Positions 6,967-22,737 of a DNA stretch of 64,000 nt are shown here, piece after piece. The stretch is from an uncultured Pelagibacteraceae bacterium (GTDB lineage: Bacteria; Pseudomonadota; Alphaproteobacteria; Pelagibacterales; Pelagibacteraceae): contig CACOXS010000003.1 of NCBI GenBank assembly GCA_902631255.1, positions 5,692-69,691 of the forward strand, given 5' to 3'. The translations under genes and the position numbers were made by a program. The notes under the pieces were generated by a model. That model was not told the DNA's origin. It saw only the letters and a program-made list of their open reading frames with translations, and did no database searches. Numbering within the stretch: position 1 is the first letter of the stretch; each line of letters opens with the position of its first letter.

Positions 6967-7737
6967 TTAGATATTTTTATTTTTTAAGATTAAACTTGGA
7001 TTTTTAAAATTTTTCTTTCCATATTTAATTTCTTTGCCATCAAAATCTGAAATTATTCCTCCAGCATGTTGTAAAATTGCATGACCAGCCGCTATATCCC
7101 ATTCACAAGCTCTCGGCTCAGCCACATATCCATCATATTCGCCAGCAGCAATGACACAAAATTTAAGAGAACTTTTCATTCTTACATATTTTTTTACATT
7201 AAATTTTTTATGTAATTTTTCTATTTCAGGTTTAATATTGTTTGAATTGGAAACAAATTTCACATCATTTTTATCAAAATTTTCAGAACAATTTAAATTC
7301 TTGGTTTCACCATTTGTAAACTCATAGGCATTATTTGGACCATAGGAGTAAAACATTCTTTTTTTTGAAGGGGCATAAATTAATCCAGCTACTGGATTTT
7401 TGTTAATTATTAATCCAGCATTAATTGTAAATTCCTCTAGATTATTTATGTAGTCATAGGTGCCATCTATGGGGTCGATTAGCCAAAAGTTTTCAAGATT
7501 GTTTATTGATTTATTATCAGAGGTCTCCTCTGAAATAATGGGAAGTTCAGGTGTCAATTCTTTAATTTTTTGAGTGACAATTTTATTAACTTCTAAATCT
7601 CCATTACTAACAGGAGTATTATCGGCTTTAATTTTTTTTATAAGTCCTTGTTTTCTTAAATCTAAAGAAATTTTTCCTGCATGAATAAATGTATCAATTA
7701 GATTTTCGACAATCTCTTTTAAATTCAAATTATTCAT
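6967..7737 (-). CDS. cysQ: 3'(2'),5'-bisphosphate nucleotidase CysQ
   Basis: IISEE, FWLIDPIDGT, WDIAAGHAIL inositol-monophosphatase-family motifs. Confidence 0.9.
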   Translation of the reverse strand: MNNLNLKEIVENLIDTFIHAGKISLDLRKQGLIKKIKADNTPVSNGDLEVNKIVTQKIKELTPELPIISEETSDNKSINNLENFWLIDPIDGTYDYINNLEEFTINAGLIINKNPVAGLIYAPSKKRMFYSYGPNNAYEFTNGETKNLNCSENFDKNDVKFVSNSNNIKPEIEKLHKKFNVKKYVRMKSSLKFCVIAAGEYDGYVAEPRACEWDIAAGHAILQHAGGIISDFDGKEIKYGKKNFKNPSLILKNKNI

Positions 7738-11612: not shown

Positions 11613-12764
11613 TTGAACAGATTAAATCAATTAACAGAGATACATCAGTCAGGAAAACCCTACATTATTTATAAATCTAAAAAAGGATTTAATCTTTATA
11701 CTAATTTTTCAAAAAAAATTATTTTAAATAATAAAAATATTAAAAGTTTTTTAACTAAAAAAAATAAAAAGAAATCAAAAGATACTGACCTTTTTATTGG
11801 TTTCTTTGGATATGAGTTATTGAATAATCTAATTGATGTTAAACTCCCAAAACAGAAGAATTTAAATTTTCCCAAAGGTATTTTCTATAAACCAGAAAAA
11901 AAGATCAAACTAAGTAACAAGTTAAATTATGATTTCGAAGATTTTAAATCAGGTAATTTTAAAATAAATATTAATAGAAAAAATTATACAAAAATATTCA
12001 ATAAATTTAAGAAAAAAATAAAAAGTGGTGAAACATATCAAATTAAAATTTGCACCAAATATAAAACAAAGTCAGAAATTAATCCGTTAGATTTTTTTTC
12101 GAGGTTATCTAATACTAACTTAGCTCCCGAGGCTTTTATGATTAAAGATCATAATTATTCAATAATTAGTTGTTCCCCAGAAACTTTAATTACAAAAAAG
12201 GGGAGTGATATATCTACAAAACCAATAGCTGGAACTGTAAAAAAAACGAAGCATTTAAATAAAATAAAGGCATTAGATTATTTTAGAAAAAATTTAAAAG
12301 AAACCAAAGAACACAATATGATTGTTGATATGGAAAGAAATGATTTATCAAGAATTTGTAAAGTAGGCACTGTAAAATTATCTAAACAAAAAATCGTAGA
12401 AGAATATAAAGACCTTTTTCATTATGTCAGCCTTATCAGGGGTAAATTAAAAAAAAATATAAATAATTTTGAAATCATTAAAGCAATGATGCCTGGTGGT
12501 TCAGTTATTGGGTGTCCAAAGATAAATACGCTTAATCTTTTAAATAATCAGGAAAAAGAAAATAGGAATATTTATACAGGTAGTTTTGGCTACATAAAAT
12601 TCAATGGTGATATGAGATTTAACATAATTATACGTTCAATTATAAATTTTAAAAATATATCTGAAATTTCAGTTGCTTCAGGTGTTGTCGTCGATAGTAA
12701 TGCCAATCATGAATTTAATGAAAACTTTCTAAAAGCTAAAGCGTTAATAGATTTATTTAAATGA
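11613..12764 (+). CDS. pabB: Chorismate-binding enzyme, aminodeoxychorismate synthase component I-like
   Basis: GETYQ, SPETL, KPIAGT, EHNMIVDMERND, PGGSVIGCPK, YTGSFG. Confidence 0.75.
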   Translation: MNRLNQLTEIHQSGKPYIIYKSKKGFNLYTNFSKKIILNNKNIKSFLTKKNKKKSKDTDLFIGFFGYELLNNLIDVKLPKQKNLNFPKGIFYKPEKKIKLSNKLNYDFEDFKSGNFKININRKNYTKIFNKFKKKIKSGETYQIKICTKYKTKSEINPLDFFSRLSNTNLAPEAFMIKDHNYSIISCSPETLITKKGSDISTKPIAGTVKKTKHLNKIKALDYFRKNLKETKEHNMIVDMERNDLSRICKVGTVKLSKQKIVEEYKDLFHYVSLIRGKLKKNINNFEIIKAMMPGGSVIGCPKINTLNLLNNQEKENRNIYTGSFGYIKFNGDMRFNIIIRSIINFKNISEISVASGVVVDSNANHEFNENFLKAKALIDLFK

Positions 12765-13318
12765 TTTATGTAATTGATCATAACGACTCCTTTACTCATA
12801 ATGTAGTTCATCAATTTGCATTGTTTGATAAAGTTGAGTGCGATAACTATGATAAAATTAACGAAAATAAAATAAAGCACGCATCTACAATAATTTTTTC
12901 ACCTGGACCAGGTAATCCAAAAAATTATCCAATCACCTCAAAAATTTATAAAAAATATAAAGGTAAAAAGAAAATCATAGGGATTTGTCTAGGATTTCAA
13001 CATATTTTATTTTGTGAAGGCGCAGAAATTGTTGAACAAAAAAAAATTTATCATGGTTTTCAATCAAATATAAAAGTAATCACTAATAAATCTTTATTCA
13101 AAAAAGGAAAAATATTTAAAGTTGGTAGGTATCATTCTTTAAAATTAAAAGAGCCTTTCAAATCTAATAATTTTGAGATAACTATGAGATGTTTAAATTC
13201 AAAAGTTGCAATGGCATTTGAAAATAAAAAGGAAAAAATTTATGGATTTCAATTTCACCCAGAATCTTTTTTAACTATCAATGGTAACCTACTTATTAAA
13301 AAAATCTTATCGGCTTAA
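12761..13318 (+). CDS. pabA: Glutamine amidotransferase, ADC synthase component II
   Basis: DSFTHN, SPGPGNP, GICLG, RYHSL, QFHPES. Confidence 0.8.
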   Translation: MIYVIDHNDSFTHNVVHQFALFDKVECDNYDKINENKIKHASTIIFSPGPGNPKNYPITSKIYKKYKGKKKIIGICLGFQHILFCEGAEIVEQKKIYHGFQSNIKVITNKSLFKKGKIFKVGRYHSLKLKEPFKSNNFEITMRCLNSKVAMAFENKKEKIYGFQFHPESFLTINGNLLIKKILSA

Positions 13319-14054
13319 AGACTTAAAACAGATAGAATTCCAAGATCTTTGGGGGGATCATGGAATTTTTACAACGATGTGGATTTTTGGCAAACCAGCA
13401 AAAATTTTATTTTTTGACAATCATTTAAAAAACTTAATTTTATCACTAAAAAAATATCGAATTAAAAAGAAATCATTAAGGTCGGATATTTTAGAAATAA
13501 TAAATAAAAATTTATCCAAAAAGAAGAAATATAATCACCTATTGAGAATTGCTATAAATAAAAAAGTAGTTTCAATATCTTTAAGAAAAAGAGTTAAACC
13601 GAAATTAAATTTTAATTTGATATTAGTAAAATTAAAAAGAGAAAAACCAGAGTTTAAAAATCTAAAATATAAAAAGATCTTATCTTATCTATCTAAAATG
13701 GATAACTCCCAATCAGATATTGCATTGGTATCTAATAAGAAATTACTAGAGACCGGAACCTCAAATTTATTATTTGTTAAAGATCAAAAATTTTTTACTC
13801 CCAAAAAGGATTATTATGAGGGAAATACTTATAAATTTTTCAAAACAAAAATAAGAAAGATTTTTAAGAAAGATATTTTACTTAAAGAGATAAAAAATTA
13901 TGATGAAATTTTATTGATAGGATCTGGGAAAGGGGTTGCTTCAGTTAGAACTATTAACGAGCTTAAATGGAAAAGAAAAAACCTAAAAAAATTTAAGTTT
14001 CTGTCAAAAGAATATGATGCAGTTATAAATAAATGCAATTCTTATAGATTTTAA
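13281..14054 (+). CDS. Aminotransferase class IV, probable aminodeoxychorismate lyase
   Basis: GIFTTM and LLETGTSNL class-IV motifs; follows pabBA. Confidence 0.7.
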   Translation: MVTYLLKKSYRLKDLKQIEFQDLWGDHGIFTTMWIFGKPAKILFFDNHLKNLILSLKKYRIKKKSLRSDILEIINKNLSKKKKYNHLLRIAINKKVVSISLRKRVKPKLNFNLILVKLKREKPEFKNLKYKKILSYLSKMDNSQSDIALVSNKKLLETGTSNLLFVKDQKFFTPKKDYYEGNTYKFFKTKIRKIFKKDILLKEIKNYDEILLIGSGKGVASVRTINELKWKRKNLKKFKFLSKEYDAVINKCNSYRF

Positions 14055-14057
14055 TAG

Positions 14058-14456
14058 ATGAAAGATCCAAACAATCCTTGTTTATTTTGTGACGTTAAAA
14101 AAAGTGGATGTGCTCATGAAAATGAATTGGCATATGCAAGTTATGACTCTTTTCCAGTTTCAGAACATCATTGTTTGATTATACCCAAAAGACACATAAA
14201 GGATTATTTTGACTTATCTAATGATGAATTGATTGCATGTAATGATCTTATAAAAGTTATTAAAAAAGAAATAACAAATAAAGATCCGTTAGTTAAAGGA
14301 TTTAATCTAGGCACAAATATAGGAATTGTATCTGGTCAATCTATTTTTCATTGCCACTTTCATCTGATTCCCCGAAGAGAAGGAGATGTTGATAATCCTC
14401 AGGGTGGAGTACGATCAGTTATTCCAAGCAAACAACATTATAAAAGAAATAATTAG
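14058..14456 (+). CDS. HIT-family nucleotide hydrolase
   Basis: CLFC zinc motif, HCLIIPKRH, histidine triad GQSIFHCHFHLIPRR. Confidence 0.92.
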   Translation: MKDPNNPCLFCDVKKSGCAHENELAYASYDSFPVSEHHCLIIPKRHIKDYFDLSNDELIACNDLIKVIKKEITNKDPLVKGFNLGTNIGIVSGQSIFHCHFHLIPRREGDVDNPQGGVRSVIPSKQHYKRNN

Positions 14457-14474
14457 CCTGTTATAAAAGACAAA

Positions 14475-14509
14475 TTGACCCCAGTTTGAGGTTGAACTAT
14501 AAATTCAAC
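14475..14509 (+). promoter_or_regulatory. sigma70-like promoter of aprMBA with overlapping inverted repeat
   Basis: TTGACC(14475)-N17-TATAAA(14498); GTTGAA-N7-TTCAAC (14491-14509) brackets the -10 element. Confidence 0.5.
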
Positions 14510-14556
14510 TATATATAAAACTTTTTAACTAATTCAAAATTTAACAAAAGGCGGAA

Positions 14557-15351
14557 ATGTTAAGTAACAATCCATTTTCAATTTTATCAGAAACCATTTC
14601 ACCCTTTGCAATGCAATCTTTCATTATTGCTATGGTTTTGTTGATTGCAGTAGGAACTATTATTCAAATGATACATCACAAAAATTTGACTTATTTTTTT
14701 AACAACGCGAAAAAAGCAAAGCTTTCAGCAACAAAAAAATTAGGAGTTGGAGAAAAAGTTTCTGTAATTGCTAAAACGACAGTTGTTGATATTGGCACAA
14801 CTTCTGAATTAGGGTTTGGTAAAAGAAGACTTGCCCATGTTCTAGGAATGTATGGCACAATTTTATTTTGGGTGTCTTCAGCTATTTTAGTTTTTTGTTA
14901 CACAGGTGCTGATAAACCAAGTTCCCAAACTTGGTCAATGATTTGGCATGCAGGAGCAATATTAACATGTTTAGGTGGATATTGGTTTTGGTTTTTTTTA
15001 AGAGTTGATGTTTCAGCAGAAGCTCATCCTTGGTATAGGATTATAAAAGCTGATTTATTTGTTTTAGCATTACTTGCGTGTTCAACTTTTGGGTTAGCTT
15101 GGTCATTCACACAATTTAATGGGCAAATAGGTTTGTCTTATTTGTTTTTAATTTTATTTGTTGCATCTAACTTAATTTTATTTGGTGGTGTTTATTGGTC
15201 GAAATTTGCTCACATGTTTTATAAACCTGGAGCAGCTATCCAAAAAAATTTAGCAGAGGCAGATGGGTCTAGAGATAACTTACCTCCACCAGCTGATGCC
15301 CCAGAACAATTTGGCCTGGGTATAAAAAGAGAAGAGCCAAAACATTATTAA
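14557..15351 (+). CDS. aprM: Adenylylsulfate reductase membrane anchor AprM
   Basis: Five TM segments, WSKFAHMFYKP, directly upstream of aprB. Confidence 0.88.
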   Translation: MLSNNPFSILSETISPFAMQSFIIAMVLLIAVGTIIQMIHHKNLTYFFNNAKKAKLSATKKLGVGEKVSVIAKTTVVDIGTTSELGFGKRRLAHVLGMYGTILFWVSSAILVFCYTGADKPSSQTWSMIWHAGAILTCLGGYWFWFFLRVDVSAEAHPWYRIIKADLFVLALLACSTFGLAWSFTQFNGQIGLSYLFLILFVASNLILFGGVYWSKFAHMFYKPGAAIQKNLAEADGSRDNLPPPADAPEQFGLGIKREEPKHY

Positions 15352-15384: not shown

Positions 15385-15855
15385 ATGTCAACTTTTGTAT
15401 ACATGACAAGATGTGATGGCTGTGGTCATTGCGTAGATATATGTCCTTCAGACATCATGCACATTGACGAAAATATAAGAAGAGCAAAAAATATTGAACC
15501 AAATTTTTGTTGGGAATGTTATTCGTGTGTTAAAGCATGTCCTAATCATGCAATTGATGTGAGAGGGTATGCTGATTTTGCTCCGATGGGTCACAGCGTT
15601 AGAGTTAGAAGAGAAGAAGAAAAAGGAACTATCTCTTGGAAAATTAAATTTAGAAACGGAACAGAGAAAAACTTCGTTTCACCTATAACCACAAAACCTT
15701 GGGGAAAATTTATTCCTAAACTTGCTGAAGGTGATACTCCTAACCAAGGTGAAATTAATTCACAAAGATTATATAGTGAGCCAGAAGGATTAAACACCAA
15801 TAAGGAATTACCATCGGTTCCAAAAGAGTCTTTTAAAAAAGGTGTTTATTATTAA
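15385..15855 (+). CDS. aprB: Adenylylsulfate reductase beta subunit
   Basis: Two 4Fe-4S motifs, CDGCGHCVDICP and CWECYSCVKACP; RGYADF. Confidence 0.97.
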   Translation: MSTFVYMTRCDGCGHCVDICPSDIMHIDENIRRAKNIEPNFCWECYSCVKACPNHAIDVRGYADFAPMGHSVRVRREEEKGTISWKIKFRNGTEKNFVSPITTKPWGKFIPKLAEGDTPNQGEINSQRLYSEPEGLNTNKELPSVPKESFKKGVYY

Positions 15856-17714
15856 TGGCTAAGCACAAAACACATTATGAGGAGTGTGATGTATTAGTTG
15901 TTGGTGGTGGAATGGCCGGCACAGGAGCAACATTTGAGGCAAGACATTGGGGGAGAGATTTAAAAATTGTTTGTGTTGAAAAAGCAAACATTGATCGAAG
16001 TGGAGCGGTTGCACAAGGTTTATATGCAATCAATTGTTACATGGGTATGCAATGGGATGAAAATCAACCTGAAGACCATGTAAGGTATGCCAGAAATGAT
16101 TTAATGGGAATGGTTAGAGAAGATTTGGGTTATGACATGGCTCGTCATGTAGACTCAACTGTTCATATGTTTGATGAGTGGGGTCTTCCAATGATGAAAA
16201 ACGAAAAAACTGGAAGATATCTAAGAGAAGGTAAATGGCAAATAATGATTCATGGAGAAAGTTATAAGCCAATTGTTGCCGAGGCAGCAAAAAAATCAGC
16301 AGATAAAATTTACAATAGAATAATGATCACTCATTTATTAATGGATGAGTCTCAAGAAAATAGAATTGGTGGTGCAGTTGGTTTTAATATGAGAACAGGT
16401 GATTTTCATGTGTTCAGAGCTAAGGCAGTTATAGTATCAGCTGGTGGAGCATCACATATTTTTAAACCAAGAGCGGTTGGAGAAGGTATGGGAAGAACTT
16501 GGTATGCACCATGGAGTAATGGGTCGGCTTACGCTTTACCTATCGCAGCAGGTGCAAAGATGACTCAAATGGAAAACAGAATTGTATTGTGCAGATTTAA
16601 AGATGGTTATGGACCAGTTGGAGCTTATTTTTTACATTTAAAAACATACACACAAAATGCTAATGGCGAAAATTACGAGAAAAAATGGTATGAACAAACT
16701 AAAGAATTAGTTGGAGAATATATTGATCATCATCCAACTCCCACTTGTTTAAGAAACCATGCCTTTATTCAGGAAGTTGCTGCAGGCGGTGGACCGATAC
16801 ACATGGTAACTAAAGAAGCTTTCCAAGATCCTCATTTAGAAACAGTAGGTTGGGAAAACTTTTTAGGAATGACCGTTGGTCAAGCAGTAGTTTGGGCATC
16901 TCAAAATATTGATCCCAAGTACACAAATCCTGAATTAACAACTTCTGAGCCTTACGTAATGGGATCTCACGCAACCTGCTCTGGCGCTTGGGTAAGTGGA
17001 CCAGAAGATCTATCTCCACCAGAATATTTCTGGGGTTATAACAGAATGCTTACAATCGATGGACTTTTTGGTGCTGGAGATACAGTAGGAGGTAGTGCTC
17101 ATAAATTTTCATCAGGTTCTTTTACTGAAGGAAGATTAGCTGCAAAAGCAGCAGTTAAATATATAGAGGATAAAAAAGCAGAAGGAATAAATGTTACTGA
17201 TAAACAATGTGATGATTTTAAAAAGGCAGTTTATAAACCTTTAGAGACTTACACAGTTGCTCAAAATGAGATCACTGGTGGAACCGTTTCACCAAGCTAT
17301 ATTTCTCCAATACAAGGATTACAAAGACTTCAAAAAATTATGGACGAGTATGTTGGGGGGATTACTTCAAATTACATGACTAACGGCAATATGCTTAAGA
17401 GGGCTCTTGAACTTTTAGAGTGGTTGCAAGAAGATTTGGAAAACGTGGGGGCTGAGGATTATCACCAATTAATGAGAGCTTGGGAGCTTAAACACAGAGC
17501 TCTAACCTCACAATGTGTAACAGAGCATACATTATTTAGAGAAGAAACTCGTTGGCCGGGTTATTATTACAGAGGCGATCATATGAAACTTGATGATGAA
17601 AATTGGCATTGCTTAACAGTTTCTAGAAGAGACCCTAAAACAGGAAAATTTACTCTGGAGAAAGTACCAGTATATCATATCGTTGACGAAAAAGAGAAGA
17701 AGAAGGCTTCGTAA
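15855..17714 (+). CDS. aprA: Adenylylsulfate reductase alpha subunit (FAD)
   Basis: VGGGMAG, RSGAVAQGL, WQIMIHGESYK, RFKDGYGPVGA, HKFSSGS. Confidence 0.97.
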   Translation: MAKHKTHYEECDVLVVGGGMAGTGATFEARHWGRDLKIVCVEKANIDRSGAVAQGLYAINCYMGMQWDENQPEDHVRYARNDLMGMVREDLGYDMARHVDSTVHMFDEWGLPMMKNEKTGRYLREGKWQIMIHGESYKPIVAEAAKKSADKIYNRIMITHLLMDESQENRIGGAVGFNMRTGDFHVFRAKAVIVSAGGASHIFKPRAVGEGMGRTWYAPWSNGSAYALPIAAGAKMTQMENRIVLCRFKDGYGPVGAYFLHLKTYTQNANGENYEKKWYEQTKELVGEYIDHHPTPTCLRNHAFIQEVAAGGGPIHMVTKEAFQDPHLETVGWENFLGMTVGQAVVWASQNIDPKYTNPELTTSEPYVMGSHATCSGAWVSGPEDLSPPEYFWGYNRMLTIDGLFGAGDTVGGSAHKFSSGSFTEGRLAAKAAVKYIEDKKAEGINVTDKQCDDFKKAVYKPLETYTVAQNEITGGTVSPSYISPIQGLQRLQKIMDEYVGGITSNYMTNGNMLKRALELLEWLQEDLENVGAEDYHQLMRAWELKHRALTSQCVTEHTLFREETRWPGYYYRGDHMKLDDENWHCLTVSRRDPKTGKFTLEKVPVYHIVDEKEKKKAS

Positions 17715-17735: not shown

Positions 17736-18086
17736 ATGGACCTTTTGAAAAAATCTGATGAGGAGATATTCACGATAGCCAAGCCTTATTGGGAAAATCT
17801 TGTAAGAGCCTCAAATATGAAAGATTATGGCGGCTTTACAAGAGATTTCTCTACCCAAATGCTGTTTGGAGCTAACGAAGTAGAGCTTGGAAAGCAATGG
17901 GCTAACAATAAGATTATCACCAATTTAAATGAGACTTACGAACCTTTCGGAACATTAAGAAGAGGTGATCATATTACTGTATTGATTAAGCAGACTAATA
18001 AGGAAGTACCTGGAGAATTTTTAGGAAGGCTGGTTCTTGGTATTGAGGATGGAGAAGTTAAAATTTTTGGAGCCACAATATATTAA
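17736..18086 (+). CDS. Hypothetical protein, possibly NTF2/SnoaL-like alpha+beta fold
   Basis: 116-aa ORF 21 nt after aprA; helical N-terminus then beta-strand pattern. Confidence 0.7.
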   Translation: MDLLKKSDEEIFTIAKPYWENLVRASNMKDYGGFTRDFSTQMLFGANEVELGKQWANNKIITNLNETYEPFGTLRRGDHITVLIKQTNKEVPGEFLGRLVLGIEDGEVKIFGATIY

Positions 18087-19381: not shown

Positions 19382-20548
19382 TTAAGCACTTCGGTATAAT
19401 TTGGTCATTACGAATTCTCTATGACCTAAAGCTTCAGCACAAGTGAGTCTACCATTGGCAACTTTTAAAGTTGTTTTAATTAATTCATCTCCAGCTTCAG
19501 ATAAATTCATTTCTCTTGAGAGAATTTTTGAAACATCACAATCAATATGTTCTCCCATAGATTTAACTGTTAAAGGGTTTGCAGTTAATTTTATAACTGG
19601 TTCAATTGGGTTACCAACAATATTACCCTGACCAGTAGGGAATAGATGAATATTAAATCCCGCAGCTGCTTGTAGCGTTACACACTCCGCCGCAGCAGAT
19701 GAAGTATCCATGAAGTATAGACCTTTTCCTTTTTTTGGTTCTTCAGCTGGTTCCAAAACATCAACAAATTTACAATTTCCTATTTTTTGAAAATTTCCAA
19801 AAGCTTTTTCTTCAATAGTCGTTAAACCACCTGCTATATTTCCTGCAGTTGGTTGACTTTCAGAAAGGTCATCCGTTGCTTCTTTCAAAATAAAATCGTT
19901 ATAGGCACTCCAAGTCTTCATAAACTTATCTGAAGCTTCTTTTGTTGCACCTCTTGTAGCACAAACTTTTTCTGCTCCTGTCAGTTCTGATGTTTCCCCA
20001 AAACATAAATGAACTCCAAGTGGCTCAAGTTTATCCATTAAATTTCCAACAGTTGGATTGGAAGCTAAACCGGAAGTGGTATCAGACTCACCACATTTTA
20101 CTGAAATCCATAAATCACTTATCGGGCATTCTTCTCTCTGTATTTCAGAGGCCCACATAACAAATTCTTGAGCTTTTTTTGAAGCTTTCATTACAGTTCC
20201 AATATCACCAGTACGTTCAATATGGAAACCTTCAACTGGCTTTCCAGTTTTCGCAATTCCATCTACTATTCTTTTAGTCCATTTGGGTTCAATACCAATC
20301 ACAATTACTGCCGCAACATTTGGGTTGCTACCAGTTCCAATCATTGTTCTAAAATGCAATTCTAAATCTGCTCCAAATTGTAATCTTCCATAAGAATGGG
20401 GAAGAGCTATTGTTCCTTTAATGTTATTTGCAACTGCTTCAGCACATGCGTTTGAAATATCATCAACAGGTAAAATAATTACATGGTTTCTTGTACCTGC
20501 TCTACCATTTTCTCTTTTATAACCTAAAAAACTTTTTGGAATTTCCAT
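19382..20548 (-). CDS. suyB: (R)-sulfolactate sulfo-lyase beta subunit (UxaA family)
   Basis: [48 protein letters not shown]; paired with a SAF subunit in a sulfonate context. Confidence 0.85.
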
Positions 20549-20552
20549 CTAA

Positions 20553-20837
20553 TTACCACTTTTTTGTTTTGACATTATGAACGTGCACGTGTTGACCTTT
20601 TTTAATTGCTTTGACTACTTTACCTATATCGTGACCGTATTTTAGAATCGTATCTCCTTCATTTAAATCAATCATTGCAATTTTATGGCCTAAAGGGATT
20701 TCATCTGCTGATTGAATGTTTACTGAGCTGTCATTCTCCATAATCCAACAATTACAATCTTGTTTTGGAGTAATTTTTTCTATAACGACTACACCAACAT
20801 TGTCTTTTTTGTCGTGAATTATAATATCTGTTGACAT
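20553..20837 (-). CDS. suyA: Sulfolactate sulfo-lyase alpha subunit (SAF domain)
   Basis: DNVGVVV, IPLGHKIA, KYGHDIG, HVHVHN. Confidence 0.85.
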   Translation of the reverse strand: MSTDIIIHDKKDNVGVVVIEKITPKQDCNCWIMENDSSVNIQSADEIPLGHKIAMIDLNEGDTILKYGHDIGKVVKAIKKGQHVHVHNVKTKKW

Positions 20838-20952: not shown

Positions 20953-22737
20953 ATGACTAAAATGACAACTGAGGAAGCTTTTGTAAAAGTTTTACAAATG
21001 CATGGTATTGAACACGCTTTTGGAATTATTGGTTCTGCGTTCATGCCTATATCTGATATTTTCCCAGATGCAGGAATTACTTTTTGGGATGTAGCACACG
21101 AAACAAACGGTGGTTTGATTGCCGATGGTTACACAAGATCTACTGGAAAAATGTCTATGGTCATTGCACAAAATGGACCAGGCATAACAGGATTAGTAAC
21201 GCCAATAAAAACTGCATATTGGAATCACACACCTTTACTATTAGTAACCCCGCAAGCTGCAAATAAAACTATGGGACAAGGTGGTTTTCAAGAAGTAGAA
21301 CAAATGAATTTATTTAAAGATATGGTTTGTTATCAAGAGGAAGTAAGAGATCCCTCAAGAATGGCCGAAGTTTTGAATAGAGTAATAGAAAAAGCAATAA
21401 GAGGTTCTGCACCAGCACAAATAAATGTACCGAGAGATTATTGGACCCAAGTTATAGATATAGAATTACCACCAATAGTTAGATTGGAAAGACAAGGTGG
21501 TGGAGCCGAAGCAATAGATAAAGCTGCAAAACTTTTATCAAATGCAAAATTTCCTGTAATTTTATCTGGAGCAGGTGTTGTTATTGGCGGTGCAATTGAG
21601 GAAACTAAAAAACTTGCTGAAAAACTAGATTCACCTGTTTGCTCAGGATACCAACACAATGATAGTTTTCCTGGAAGTCATCCCTTAGCAGTTGGACCAT
21701 TGGGATATAATGGATCAAAAGCTGCCATGGAATTAATTTCCAAAGCCGATGTAGTTTTAGCTTTAGGAACAAGATTAAATCCTTTTTCAACTCTACCAGG
21801 TTATGGAATTGATTATTGGCCAAAAAAAGCAAGTATAATTCAAGTTGATATGAATCCAGATAGAATTGGATTAACTAAAAAAGTTACAGTTGGAATTAGT
21901 GGTGATGCAAAATTAGTGGCAACGCAGATTTTAGAAAAATTGTCTTCAAATGCAGGCGATACGGATAGACAAAAAAGAAAAGATTTAATTCACCAAACAA
22001 AATCAGCATGGTTACAAAAATTATCAAGTTTAGATCATGAAGATGATGATGAAGGAACAGTTTGGAATAAAGAAGCTAGAGAAAGAGACGCAGATAGAAT
22101 GTCACCAAGACAAGCTTGGCGAGCAATCCAAGCAGGTATGCCTGAGGATGTGATTATATCAAGTGATATTGGAAATAACTGCGCAATTGGAAATGCTTAT
22201 CCAACATTTGAAAAGCCAAGAAAATATTTAGCACCAGGTTTATTTGGTCCTTGTGGTTATGGTTTTCCATCGATCTTGGGTGCAAAGATAGGTTGTCCCG
22301 ATACACCAGTTATCGGTTTTGCAGGAGATGGTGCATTTGGAATTAGTATGAACGAGATGAGTTCATGTGCTAGAGAAGAATGGCCAGCAATTACAATGGT
22401 AATTTTTAGAAACTATCAGTGGGGTGCAGAAAAAAGAAATACAACTCTTTGGTTTGATAATAATTTTGTAGGAACCGAACTTGATCCTGAATTAAGTTTC
22501 GCAAAAGTAGCAGATGCTTGTGGTTTAAAAGGCATTACTGTGAAAACGATGGAAGAAACTACTGCAGCCATTAAACAGTCTTGTGAAGATCAAAAGAAAG
22601 GTATTACAACATTCATAGAAGTAATTCTAAATCAAGAGCTTGGTGAACCATTTAGAAGAGATGCTATGAAAAAGCCAGTAAGAGTAGCTGGTATTAAAAA
22701 AGAAGATATGAAGAAGCAACCTTCTTTGATTTCTTAA
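20953..22737 (+). CDS. xsc: Sulfoacetaldehyde acetyltransferase (ThDP)
   Basis: MTTEEAFVKVLQMHGIEHAFGIIGSA, GDGAFG, NYQWGAEKRN, LGEPFRRDAM: Xsc signatures. Confidence 0.95.
   Translation: MTKMTTEEAFVKVLQMHGIEHAFGIIGSAFMPISDIFPDAGITFWDVAHETNGGLIADGYTRSTGKMSMVIAQNGPGITGLVTPIKTAYWNHTPLLLVTPQAANKTMGQGGFQEVEQMNLFKDMVCYQEEVRDPSRMAEVLNRVIEKAIRGSAPAQINVPRDYWTQVIDIELPPIVRLERQGGGAEAIDKAAKLLSNAKFPVILSGAGVVIGGAIEETKKLAEKLDSPVCSGYQHNDSFPGSHPLAVGPLGYNGSKAAMELISKADVVLALGTRLNPFSTLPGYGIDYWPKKASIIQVDMNPDRIGLTKKVTVGISGDAKLVATQILEKLSSNAGDTDRQKRKDLIHQTKSAWLQKLSSLDHEDDDEGTVWNKEARERDADRMSPRQAWRAIQAGMPEDVIISSDIGNNCAIGNAYPTFEKPRKYLAPGLFGPCGYGFPSILGAKIGCPDTPVIGFAGDGAFGISMNEMSSCAREEWPAITMVIFRNYQWGAEKRNTTLWFDNNFVGTELDPELSFAKVADACGLKGITVKTMEETTAAIKQSCEDQKKGITTFIEVILNQELGEPFRRDAMKKPVRVAGIKKEDMKKQPSLIS

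What the first reader, a model, noticed from the sequence alone, without database searches (positions are those of the whole stretch)
14058..14456. HIT hydrolase next to aprMBA may replace the missing ATP sulfurylase
Seen: the gene immediately before aprM is a HIT protein with the hydrolase-type triad HCHFH, and no sat occurs in the window. Established: oxidative Apr makes APS from sulfite and AMP, and sat normally lies in this position (sat-aprMBA). HIT-superfamily proteins can cleave APS, either hydrolytically (Hint/Fhit: AMP + sulfate) or phosphorolytically (APS:phosphate adenylyltransferase, HxHxQ type). Inference: this HIT protein closes the cycle by releasing sulfate and recycling AMP, giving a minimal Sat-independent sulfite oxidation route with electrons passing through AprM. 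Caveat: it is 3 nt downstream of the pab operon and may belong to that unit.
Basis: inference. Interest (0 to 1): 0.72.

Follow-up and report, generated by a model that had tools for sequence, protein, structure and literature searches.

The report
HIT gene beside SAR11 APS reductase
A small HIT-family nucleotide hydrolase gene sits just upstream of the sulfite-oxidising APS reductase genes of a SAR11 ocean bacterium that lacks ATP sulfurylase; the same HIT subfamily is tied to these genes in other SAR11 and in unrelated sulfur oxidisers, so it is a good untested candidate for releasing sulfate from APS, but it is an optional accessory, not a strict stand-in for ATP sulfurylase.

Summary
Window 14058-14456(+) encodes a 132-aa HIT protein (FHCHFHLIPR), 3 nt after pabC and 100 nt before aprM-aprB-aprA. 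No sat was found in this 57%-complete genome, nor in its two nearest 96-99%-complete relatives. Sat occurs in only 6 of 150 Pelagibacteraceae genomes.

- For: the HIT orthologue occurs in 80 of 99 apr-positive family genomes and in none of 51 apr-negative ones.
- For: in a second SAR11 genus it lies elsewhere in the same sulfite island, as third gene of suyAB.
- For: in Woeseiaceae, Gallionella and other Proteobacteria the same subfamily lies inside apr operons.
- Against replacement: those non-SAR11 genomes all keep sat, and at least 14 apr-positive, sat-negative SAR11 genomes lack the HIT.
- Against: in this genus it is coupled to pabC, upstream of a conserved promoter-like element before aprM.
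- Against: many of its closest relatives are fused to HNH or other nuclease domains.

Best reading: a conserved but dispensable accessory of oxidative AprMBA, most likely an APS (or APS-derived adenylate) hydrolase. Chemistry is untested. This scan noted the same idea earlier on other SAR11 and sulfur-oxidiser DNA; no paper in the searched library describes it.

The parts
14058..14456 (+). HIT-family protein, 132 aa (P0001): CxFC zinc-type motif (C8, C11), H38, H46, G93-Q94, triad H98/H100/H102, and a subfamily tail GDVxxPxGGVRxVIP
   Evidence: for family, motifs and fold; for dN/dS 0.05-0.15
11613..14054 (+). pabB (11613-12764), pabA-type glutamine amidotransferase (12761-13318) and pabC-like class IV aminotransferase (13281-14054). 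The HIT gene is coupled to the end of this unit
   Evidence: Pfam and NCBIfam. The pabC-HIT gap is -4 to +9 nt in all 30 loci of the genus
14457..14556 (+). HIT-aprM spacer with a conserved promoter-like element (GGTTGAAC, 16 nt, TATAAA, about 14489-14518). The element is also kept in a relative that lacks the HIT
   Evidence: The spacer is 91-114 nt in 30 loci; alignment A2. Promoter function is inferred, not shown
14557..15351 (+). aprM-type membrane anchor, 264 aa
   Evidence: Weak match to the membrane part of QmoC (NF038018, E 2.4e-4). Conserved position before aprBA in all lineage-I loci examined
15385..17714 (+). aprB (15385-15855) and aprA (15855-17714), the APS reductase
   Evidence: PF12139 at E 5.7e-32; FAD_binding_2 and Succ_DH_flav_C. 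72-76% identical to AprA of sulfur oxidisers
17736..18086 (+). Conserved 116-aa protein of no known family. It follows aprA in SAR11 and in most alpha-, beta- and gammaproteobacterial lineage-I apr loci examined, but not in the Woeseiaceae-type loci
   Evidence: No Pfam or NCBIfam match. 45-59% identical copies sit after aprA in L061-L067, L104, L115, L123 and L125
18291..19376 (+). TauE/SafE-type sulfite exporter
   Evidence: PF01925 at E 2.5e-45
19382..20837 (-). suyB (19382-20548) and suyA (20553-20837), sulfolactate sulfo-lyase type. In the second SAR11 genus the HIT gene is the third gene of this operon
   Evidence: PF20629 and PF04295; synteny
20953..22737 (+). xsc-type thiamine-diphosphate enzyme (sulfoacetaldehyde acetyltransferase type), a source of sulfite
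   Evidence: TPP_enzyme N, M and C domains; conserved in the island

Best explanation
The gene encodes a catalytically complete, Fhit-branch HIT nucleotide hydrolase. It belongs to a subfamily that has become a conserved but dispensable accessory of the oxidative AprMBA sulfite-oxidation module.

Most likely mechanism (inferred):
1. AprBA condenses sulfite with AMP to APS and passes two electrons through AprM to the quinone pool.
2. The HIT enzyme attacks the alpha-phosphate of APS with His100, releases sulfate, and forms a covalent AMP-enzyme.
3. That intermediate is resolved by water, giving back AMP. Resolution by phosphate, giving ADP, is less likely.

This is a pyrophosphate-independent, irreversible exit for APS. 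In Sat-less SAR11 it would be the principal dedicated exit. In sulfur oxidisers that keep Sat it would be a bypass or safety valve.

Shown: the fold and motifs, the absence of sat, and the gene linkage. Inferred: the substrate and the physiological role.
For: (1) Enzyme. HIT domain, intact triad and upstream His, conserved Gln94; pLDDT 93 model closest to ST2152, Fhit and B. subtilis Hit. dN/dS is 0.05-0.15.

(2) Precedent. Fhit is an adenylylsulfate sulfohydrolase (EC 3.6.2.1). Hint4 and DcpS both hydrolyse and phosphorolyse APS (PMC4613722 and its reference 11).

(3) The gap is real. Sat is in 6 of 150 Pelagibacteraceae genomes and never next to apr there. The literature agrees that most SAR11 lack it (PMC10356861, PMC5069961).

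(4) Co-occurrence. The orthologue is in 80 of 99 apr-positive and 0 of 51 apr-negative family genomes.

(5) Four different gene arrangements link the subfamily to apr or the sulfite island:
- pabC-HIT then aprMBA in this genus (30 of 30 loci, plus 34 named Pelagibacteraceae loci).
- suyA-suyB-HIT, with start and stop sharing a base, convergent on aprMBA-orf116-tauE in a second SAR11 genus.
- aprM-aprB-aprA-HIT in Woeseiaceae and one further proteobacterial MAG.
- aprMBA-orf116-SlyD-like-TPR-HIT in Gallionella, a gammaproteobacterium and a MAG labelled Nitrospirota.

(6) Seven of 46 non-SAR11 loci of the subfamily have aprA within 10 kb. About 0.02 would be expected by chance.

(7) On the tree the apr-linked copies fall in three supported clades separated by unlinked or nuclease-fused members.

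(8) At the position where HIT-type Ap4A phosphorylases carry Gly-Ser, this protein has Gly-Gln like the hydrolases. This mildly favours hydrolysis.
Against: - No activity has been measured.
- The HIT is missing from two apr-positive genomes of this genus, with pabC running straight into aprM. One of these, G124, is unpublished.
- It is also missing from 12 of 23 apr-positive genomes of the second genus and from 2 of 2 of a third. Apart from G002 of the third genus, none of these has sat. Some other enzyme must therefore be able to clear APS.
- Every tested non-SAR11 genome with an apr-linked HIT also has sat.
- Five of seven sampled lineage-I apr genomes have a subfamily HIT that is not near apr and has housekeeping neighbours.
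- In this genus the gene is coupled to pabC and lies upstream of a conserved promoter-like element before aprM.
- Many of the closest relatives are HNH, ResIII or PLD fusions. SAR11 itself has paralogues, 45-57% identical, fused or adjacent to HNH genes. The ancestral substrate may therefore be a nucleic-acid adenylate or a dinucleotide.
- Related genomes are not independent samples.
Confidence: 0.45

Rival explanations
1. Metabolite-repair enzyme of the APS pathway. High APS flux yields side products such as adenosine 5'-phosphoramidate (from APS plus ammonia) or other adenylylated amines. The HIT enzyme hydrolyses these back to AMP. Bulk APS would be cleared by another route.
For: Fhit and Hint enzymes hydrolyse AMP-NH2, and Fhit itself makes it from APS and ammonia (PMC4613722). 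This role fits three observations: coexistence with sat in Woeseiaceae and Gallionella, dispensability in many SAR11, and strict confinement to apr-positive genomes in the family.
Against: No evidence that such by-products accumulate in these bacteria. This reading leaves the APS exit in SAR11 unexplained. Sequence cannot separate phosphoramidase from sulfohydrolase activity. The protein also lacks the Hint-type C-terminus: it has HLIPRR rather than the HxxGG form seen in the genome's own second, Hint-like HIT.
Confidence: 0.2
2. The real APS consumer in SAR11 is something else and this HIT is peripheral. Candidates are the ubiquitous Hint-type HIT (in G000 at C2:84470-84736), or the small NMNAT-like nucleotidyltransferase with its APS-kinase-like neighbour. 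That pair sits directly before aprM in two other SAR11 genera.
For: The 126-aa nucleotidyltransferase is present in 96 of 99 apr-positive family genomes, a wider coverage than the HIT. It lies immediately upstream of aprM in the second and third genera, and next to an APS-kinase-like gene in this genus. It has a weak PF01747 match (E 0.005). The Hint-type paralogue is in 145 of 150 genomes.
Against: The nucleotidyltransferase is also in about 10 apr-negative genomes. Its best matches are NMN adenylyltransferases, far below cut-offs. At 126 aa it is far smaller than the roughly 400-aa Sat proteins found here. It was not found in the window's own incomplete assembly. The Hint-type paralogue shows no association with apr.
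Confidence: 0.15
3. General housekeeping nucleotide hydrolase (for example an Ap3A or Ap4A hydrolase) that merely rides on the pabBAC operon in this genus. Its nearness to apr would be conserved synteny without shared function.
For: The pabC-HIT gap is -4 to +9 nt in 30 of 30 loci, followed by a separate promoter-like element before aprM. One source annotates it as 'Ap4A HIT family hydrolase'. Subfamily members in other bacteria have unrelated neighbours.
Against: The second SAR11 genus has no pabB orthologue, yet it keeps the HIT in the same sulfite island behind suyB. The subfamily is embedded in apr operons in at least three unrelated lineages. It is never found in apr-negative SAR11.
Confidence: 0.12
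4. Nucleic-acid or defence-related HIT, for example one that removes 5'-adenylate from DNA or RNA or degrades a signalling nucleotide, like its HNH-fused relatives.
For: Many of the closest cluster representatives carry the HIT domain at the C-terminus of longer proteins. HNH was detected in 11 of 86, and ResIII helicase, PLD and NUDIX domains also occur. SAR11 paralogues are fused or adjacent to HNH proteins that resemble PtuB and restriction nucleases. The suyB-linked clade groups with the HNH-adjacent paralogues.
Against: The apr-linked copies are stand-alone, with no nuclease partner in the island. Their linkage is to sulfur genes in four different arrangements. They are core-like within this genus (68 of 70 assessable genomes) rather than patchy like defence genes.
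Confidence: 0.08

Closest known systems
Fhit (bis(5'-adenosyl)-triphosphatase; also adenylylsulfate sulfohydrolase, EC 3.6.2.1)
   Same: Same fold, and an HxHxHxxPR...GD type C-terminus. The Gln before the triad is conserved. Foldseek E is about 1e-8 to 1e-9, including the Fhit complex with an adenosine/sulfate analogue. Fhit's documented hydrolysis of APS to AMP plus sulfate (PMC4613722) is the reaction proposed here.
   Different: Only 21-26% identical. It is bacterial, carries an N-terminal CxFC motif, and has a subfamily-specific tail (GDVxxPxGGVRxVIP) in place of Fhit's long loop. Fhit has no known link to APS reductase.
APAT, the adenylylsulfate:phosphate adenylyltransferase ('ADP sulfurylase') of Thiobacillus denitrificans (GalT branch of the HIT superfamily; recalled from Bruser et al. 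2000, not held in the library)
   Same: A HIT-superfamily enzyme proposed to take APS from oxidative APS reductase as an alternative to Sat. This is the same pathway logic.
   Different: As recalled, APAT is a large two-domain GalT-type protein with an HxHxQ motif and works by phosphorolysis. This protein is a 132-aa single-domain HxHxH enzyme. It is not a member of that branch.
HIT-type Ap4A phosphorylase Rv2613c (PDB 3ANO) and the M. avium homologue (6AF2); NCBIfam NF052622
   Same: This is the best-scoring NCBIfam model for the apr-linked copies from Gallionella and the second SAR11 genus, and the second best for this protein. Shared motif pattern NxGxxAG...HxHxHxxPRxxGD. It shows that HxHxH enzymes can use phosphate as acceptor.
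   Different: Scores of 44-66 bits lie far below the 290-bit cut-off. It lacks the roughly 60-residue N-terminal extension. It has Gly-Gln where the phosphorylases have Gly-Ser, the residue targeted in the S147Q mutant structure 3WO5.
sat-aprMBA operon of purple sulfur bacteria (Allochromatium vinosum; PMC3779200)
   Same: Same aprM-aprB-aprA module (AprA about 72-75% identical in lineage-I relatives), with a gene for an APS-metabolising enzyme directly upstream of aprM.
   Different: The upstream gene here is a HIT hydrolase coupled to pabC, not Sat. No substrate-level ATP would be gained if it hydrolyses APS.

Membership tests
HIT superfamily (Pfam PF01230) | Match to the family model above the curated cut-off | tested here: met
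   65.9 bits against a cut-off of 21.5, E 5.4e-18
HIT superfamily (Pfam PF01230) | Histidine triad HxHxHxx with hydrophobic x, plus the upstream His and a Gln/Asn for nucleotide binding | tested here: met
   H98-C-H100-F-H102-L-I. H38 and Q94 are invariant and H98, H100 and H102 are conserved in at least 90% of 86 relatives
HIT superfamily (Pfam PF01230) | Alpha+beta HIT fold | tested here: met
   pLDDT 93.2 model. Foldseek probability 1.00 to more than 40 solved HIT structures, TM about 0.7
Fhit branch | HxHxHxxPR followed by an acidic Gly-Asp segment, rather than the Hint-type HxHxHxxGG | tested here: met
   The protein has HCHFHLIPRREGD. The genome's other HIT has HLHFHIFGG
Fhit branch | Activity on ApnA or APS | not testable with these tools
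   Needs an enzyme assay
Hint branch (purine nucleoside phosphoramidase; NF007965, NF045834) | Score above the curated cut-off | tested here: not met
   27.8 bits against 206, and 52.2 bits against 130
HIT-type Ap4A phosphorylase (NF052622, Rv2613c type) | Score above the curated cut-off | tested here: not met
   44.1 bits against 290
HIT-type Ap4A phosphorylase (NF052622, Rv2613c type) | Gly-Ser in place of the hydrolase Gln before the triad | tested here: not met
   The protein has SGQSIFH. 3ANO and 6AF2 have AGGSLAEH
GalT-branch APS:phosphate adenylyltransferase (APAT) | Two-domain GalT-type protein with an HxHxQ motif | tested here: not met
   A single 132-aa domain with HxHxH and no GalT domain match. 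The APAT features are recalled from the literature, not checked against a sequence
ATP sulfurylase (Sat, PF01747) | Match to the family model | tested here: not met
   No match in the protein or anywhere in the assembly

The most novel reading that the evidence does not exclude
A dedicated, apr-linked HIT subfamily is a third, so far unrecognised route for APS turnover in sulfite oxidation, beside Sat and APAT. It would be an APS sulfohydrolase that makes the AprMBA pathway irreversible and independent of pyrophosphate. In Sat-less SAR11, the most abundant marine heterotrophs, it would be the main way that organosulfonate sulfur is returned to seawater as sulfate.
Probability: 0.25. Interest if true: 0.8.

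Novelty: new variant of a known kind. Interest (0 to 1): 0.6.

Why it matters
SAR11 oxidises sulfite released from taurine, sulfolactate and related algal sulfonates with AprMBA. Yet nearly all SAR11 lack ATP sulfurylase, so the pathway as drawn ends at APS. Papers acknowledge this gap (PMC10356861, PMC5069961, PMC12636525). If this HIT enzyme cleaves APS, the route is closed and AMP is recycled. The energy yield of the pathway would then be fixed: electrons only if it hydrolyses, half an ATP per sulfite if it phosphorolyses. A step in the marine sulfur budget would gain a marker gene.

The recurrent linkage in Gallionella and Woeseiaceae suggests a general accessory function of oxidative APS reductases that has not been described. 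The candidate is small, soluble and easy to assay, so the question is directly testable.

Tried and rejected
- Single-sequence AlphaFold gave an unusable model (pLDDT 39). It was replaced by the alignment-based model.
- Consensus promoter and terminator scans were no better than shuffles in this AT-rich DNA.
- The word-indexed homologue search returned only near-identical SAR11 proteins.
- The supplementary files of the Pelagibacter sulfur-limitation study hold no entry for the HIT or apr genes. An earlier scan note that the gene is barely expressed therefore could not be checked.
- A random sample of 400 Pseudomonadota genomes showed co-occurrence of the subfamily with lineage-I AprA (5 of 7) but no adjacency, and housekeeping neighbours. 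Linkage outside SAR11 only became visible in the targeted scan of species genomes.
- AU tests could not decide between one ancient apr-linked HIT clade and repeated recruitment (p 0.10 and 0.29). A larger test did not finish.
- G146, the one apr-negative genome of this genus, is uninformative because its pabB orthologue is missing too, which suggests an assembly gap.
- The 126-aa nucleotidyltransferase was considered as a 'mini-Sat'. Its only sulfurylase signal is E 0.005, and its better matches are NMN adenylyltransferases. It is kept as a rival, not adopted.
- No complex prediction was run, because no claim of protein-protein binding is made.

Full report
**The object.** Window 14058-14456(+) is a 132-aa ORF. 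It matches Pfam HIT (PF01230, 65.9 bits, E 5.4e-18) and carries the triad H98-C-H100-F-H102-L-I-P-R. A model built on 86 relatives has pLDDT 93.2. Its closest solved structures are S. tokodaii ST2152, human Fhit (including the adenosine/sulfate complex 3FIT), B. subtilis Hit and the Ap4A phosphorylase Rv2613c. The C-terminus HLIPRREGD is of the Fhit/bacterial Hit type. It differs from the Hint type (HxxGG), which the same genome carries in a second, unrelated HIT gene on contig C2. Curated NCBIfam models for HinT, purine nucleoside phosphoramidase and actinobacterial Ap4A phosphorylase are all matched far below their cut-offs. Pairwise dN/dS against nine orthologues is 0.05-0.15, so the gene is maintained by selection.

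**Its surroundings.** The + strand reads as follows:
- a PLP Cys/Met enzyme, an MFS transporter, then pabB, pabA and pabC;
- the HIT gene, then a 100-nt spacer;
- aprM, aprB, aprA, a conserved 116-aa ORF and a TauE sulfite exporter.

These meet suyB-suyA on the opposite strand, and xsc follows on the + strand. The taxon is Pelagibacteraceae (SAR11); named relatives include Candidatus Pelagibacter communis HTCC9565.

**Is sat missing?** The window's own assembly has no PF01747 match but is only 57% complete. The same search found sat in 6 of 150 family genomes that are at least 85% complete. It found sat in 2 of 74 genomes of this genus, never beside apr. It did not find sat in the two nearest relatives, G120 and G143, which are 99% and 96% complete. 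The literature agrees that most SAR11 lack sat (PMC10356861, PMC5069961). It also agrees that AprAB is a core gene under strong purifying selection, thought to remove sulfite (PMC12636525). Sat upstream of aprM is seen in three of seven sampled non-SAR11 lineage-I loci and in A. vinosum (PMC3779200).

**Co-occurrence in the family.** AprA is present in 99 of the 150 sampled genomes. A HIT orthologue (E below 1e-30) is present in 80 genomes, all of them apr-positive, and in none of the 51 apr-negative genomes. The apr-negative genomes have only the Hint-type paralogue at E 1e-4 to 1e-9.

In this genus 68 of 74 genomes have the orthologue.
- Four of the six exceptions have the region at contig ends or missing altogether.
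- Two are real losses in which pabC is followed directly by aprM: G121, and G124, which is unpublished.

In a second genus only 11 of 23 apr-positive genomes have it, and one of these (G112) looks like a contaminating contig of the first genus. The HIT-less loci there are otherwise identical. A third genus (2 of 2 apr-positive genomes) lacks it. Apart from G002 of that third genus, none of these HIT-less apr-positive genomes has sat.

**The pab caveat.** In all 30 fetched loci of this genus the pabC-HIT gap is -4 to +9 nt and the HIT-aprM spacer is 91-114 nt. The spacer holds a conserved promoter-like element, TTGAAC, 16 nt, then TATAAA, which is also retained in HIT-less G121. In this genus the HIT is therefore probably transcribed with pabBAC, and aprMBA probably has its own promoter. 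This is inference.

The second genus has no pabB orthologue. There the HIT is the third gene of the suyA-suyB operon, with its start sharing a base with the suyB stop, convergent on aprMBA-orf116-tauE. The constant partner is thus the sulfite island, not pab.

**Outside SAR11.** A scan of one genome per prokaryotic species with a subfamily alignment returned 80 loci: 34 Pelagibacteraceae, all with the arrangement above, and 46 others. Seven of the 46 have aprA within 10 kb:
- Woeseiaceae (L101) and a proteobacterial MAG (L113) have aprM-aprB-aprA-HIT, with the HIT overlapping the end of aprA.
- Two Gallionella MAGs, a gammaproteobacterium and a MAG labelled Nitrospirota have aprMBA-orf116-SlyD-like-TPR-HIT. 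In L115 the TPR and HIT genes overlap by 4 nt.
- A Rokubacteria MAG has sat-aprBA with the HIT 4.7 kb away.

About 9% of sampled Pseudomonadota genomes have aprA, and 20 kb is about 0.6% of a genome. Chance would therefore give about 0.02 such loci.

On a 74-sequence tree the apr-linked copies form three supported clades: Woeseiaceae/Gallionella (SH-aLRT 99), this SAR11 genus (98), and the suyB-linked SAR11 clade. Unlinked or nuclease-fused members lie between them. AU tests do not reject a single apr-linked clade (p 0.10 and 0.29). Whether this is one old association or several recruitments stays open. Either history indicates a functional tie.

**Why 'replacement of Sat' is too strong.**
- All five tested non-SAR11 genomes with an apr-linked HIT also encode Sat elsewhere.
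- So do sampled sulfur oxidisers whose subfamily HIT is unlinked and has housekeeping neighbours.
- Within SAR11 the gene is dispensable in at least 14 apr-positive, sat-negative genomes.
- A small NMNAT-like nucleotidyltransferase lies directly before aprM in the other two genera. In this genus it lies beside an APS-kinase-like gene. It covers 96 of 99 apr-positive genomes, though also about 10 apr-negative ones.

**Relatives with another context.** In a library of clusters at 50% identity, 82 representatives score E below 1e-30. Many of these closest relatives are longer proteins with the HIT domain at the C-terminus. HNH was recognised in 11 of 86 examined, and ResIII helicase, PLD and NUDIX fusions also occur. 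SAR11 genomes themselves hold paralogues, 45-57% identical, that are fused to HNH domains or adjacent to HNH proteins. The subfamily therefore did not evolve solely for sulfur metabolism.

**Mechanism.** Fhit is a documented APS sulfohydrolase. Hint4 and DcpS both hydrolyse and phosphorolyse APS (PMC4613722 and its reference 11). The proposed reaction is attack of His100 on the alpha-phosphate of APS, release of sulfate, and hydrolysis of the AMP-enzyme to AMP. The HIT-type Ap4A phosphorylases have Gly-Ser where this protein, like the hydrolases, has Gly-Gln. This mildly favours hydrolysis, but sequence cannot settle hydrolase against phosphorylase, or APS against AMP-NH2.

**Verdict.** The functional link to APS reductase is well supported by comparative genomics, at about 0.8. 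APS as the substrate is plausible, at about 0.45. A role as the obligatory substitute for Sat is unlikely, at about 0.25 even for 'principal exit in SAR11'.

No paper in the searchable library mentions apr genes together with HIT proteins, or Pelagibacter together with histidine triad. Earlier notes of this scan on other SAR11 and sulfur-oxidiser DNA reached similar readings. I re-derived the linkage, the dispensability and the coexistence with sat independently here.

Claims that rest on the unpublished genome G124: only that it is the second of two genomes of this genus in which the HIT is absent between pabC and aprM.

Noticed in passing
L035:2902-3573 (G026), also L036-L041 and L045: In two other SAR11 genera the slot between the MFS gene and aprM does not hold pabB-pabA-pabC. 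It holds a 221-223-aa CADD/CT610-type 4-aminobenzoate synthase (PDB 1RCW at E 1.1e-46, 8VA9 at 2.2e-46). G026 has no pabB orthologue. This looks like an in-place non-orthologous replacement of pABA synthesis next to apr.
   Followed up: partly
L035:3596-3976; L045:2322-3103; G120:C4:102353-103124: A 126-aa HxGH nucleotidyltransferase lies directly before aprM in two SAR11 genera. Its best weak matches are NMN adenylyltransferases, with a faint ATP-sulfurylase signal. In this genus it lies beside a roughly 135-aa APS-kinase-like gene. It is present in 96 of 99 apr-positive and about 10 apr-negative family genomes. In one apr-negative genus it appears as 260-289-aa reading frames.
   Followed up: partly
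L049:5211-6200, L050:4452-5444, L051-L053; also L106, L119, L140, L146: HNH-HIT fusion proteins (about 330-390 aa), or HIT genes next to 335-351-aa HNH proteins, occur in some SAR11 genomes and in Yoonia, Marinobacter, Zhengella and Rhodobacteraceae. The HNH parts resemble PtuB and restriction nucleases. This is an undescribed nuclease-HIT module, possibly for defence or DNA repair.
   Followed up: partly
window 17736-18086: A 116-aa protein of no known family directly follows aprA in SAR11 and, at 45-59% identity, in most alpha-, beta- and gammaproteobacterial lineage-I apr loci examined. There it is usually followed by a SlyD-like FKBP isomerase of about 170 aa. It is probably an unrecognised Apr accessory subunit or maturation factor.
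   Followed up: partly
window 6967-7737 (-): A CysQ-like 3'(2'),5'-bisphosphate nucleotidase (TIGR01331, 197 bits against a cut-off of 228.8) lies 6 kb upstream of the HIT gene. It is another enzyme of adenosine-sulfate nucleotide metabolism in a genome without sulfate assimilation.
   Followed up: no
window 14457-14556: The HIT-aprM spacer has a conserved block, TGTTATTAAnGACAAATTGACC...GGTTGAACTATnAATTCAACTATA, with a small inverted repeat (GTTGAA/TTCAAC). This could be a promoter plus an operator for aprMBA. The core survives in a relative that has lost the HIT gene.
   Followed up: partly
L046 (G093:C1:134336-134929), G117:C1:192506-193021: The rare sat genes of this SAR11 genus (2 of 74 genomes, about 340 aa) lie hundreds of kb from aprMBA. 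They coexist with the HIT, so even where SAR11 has Sat it is not part of the apr locus.
   Followed up: no
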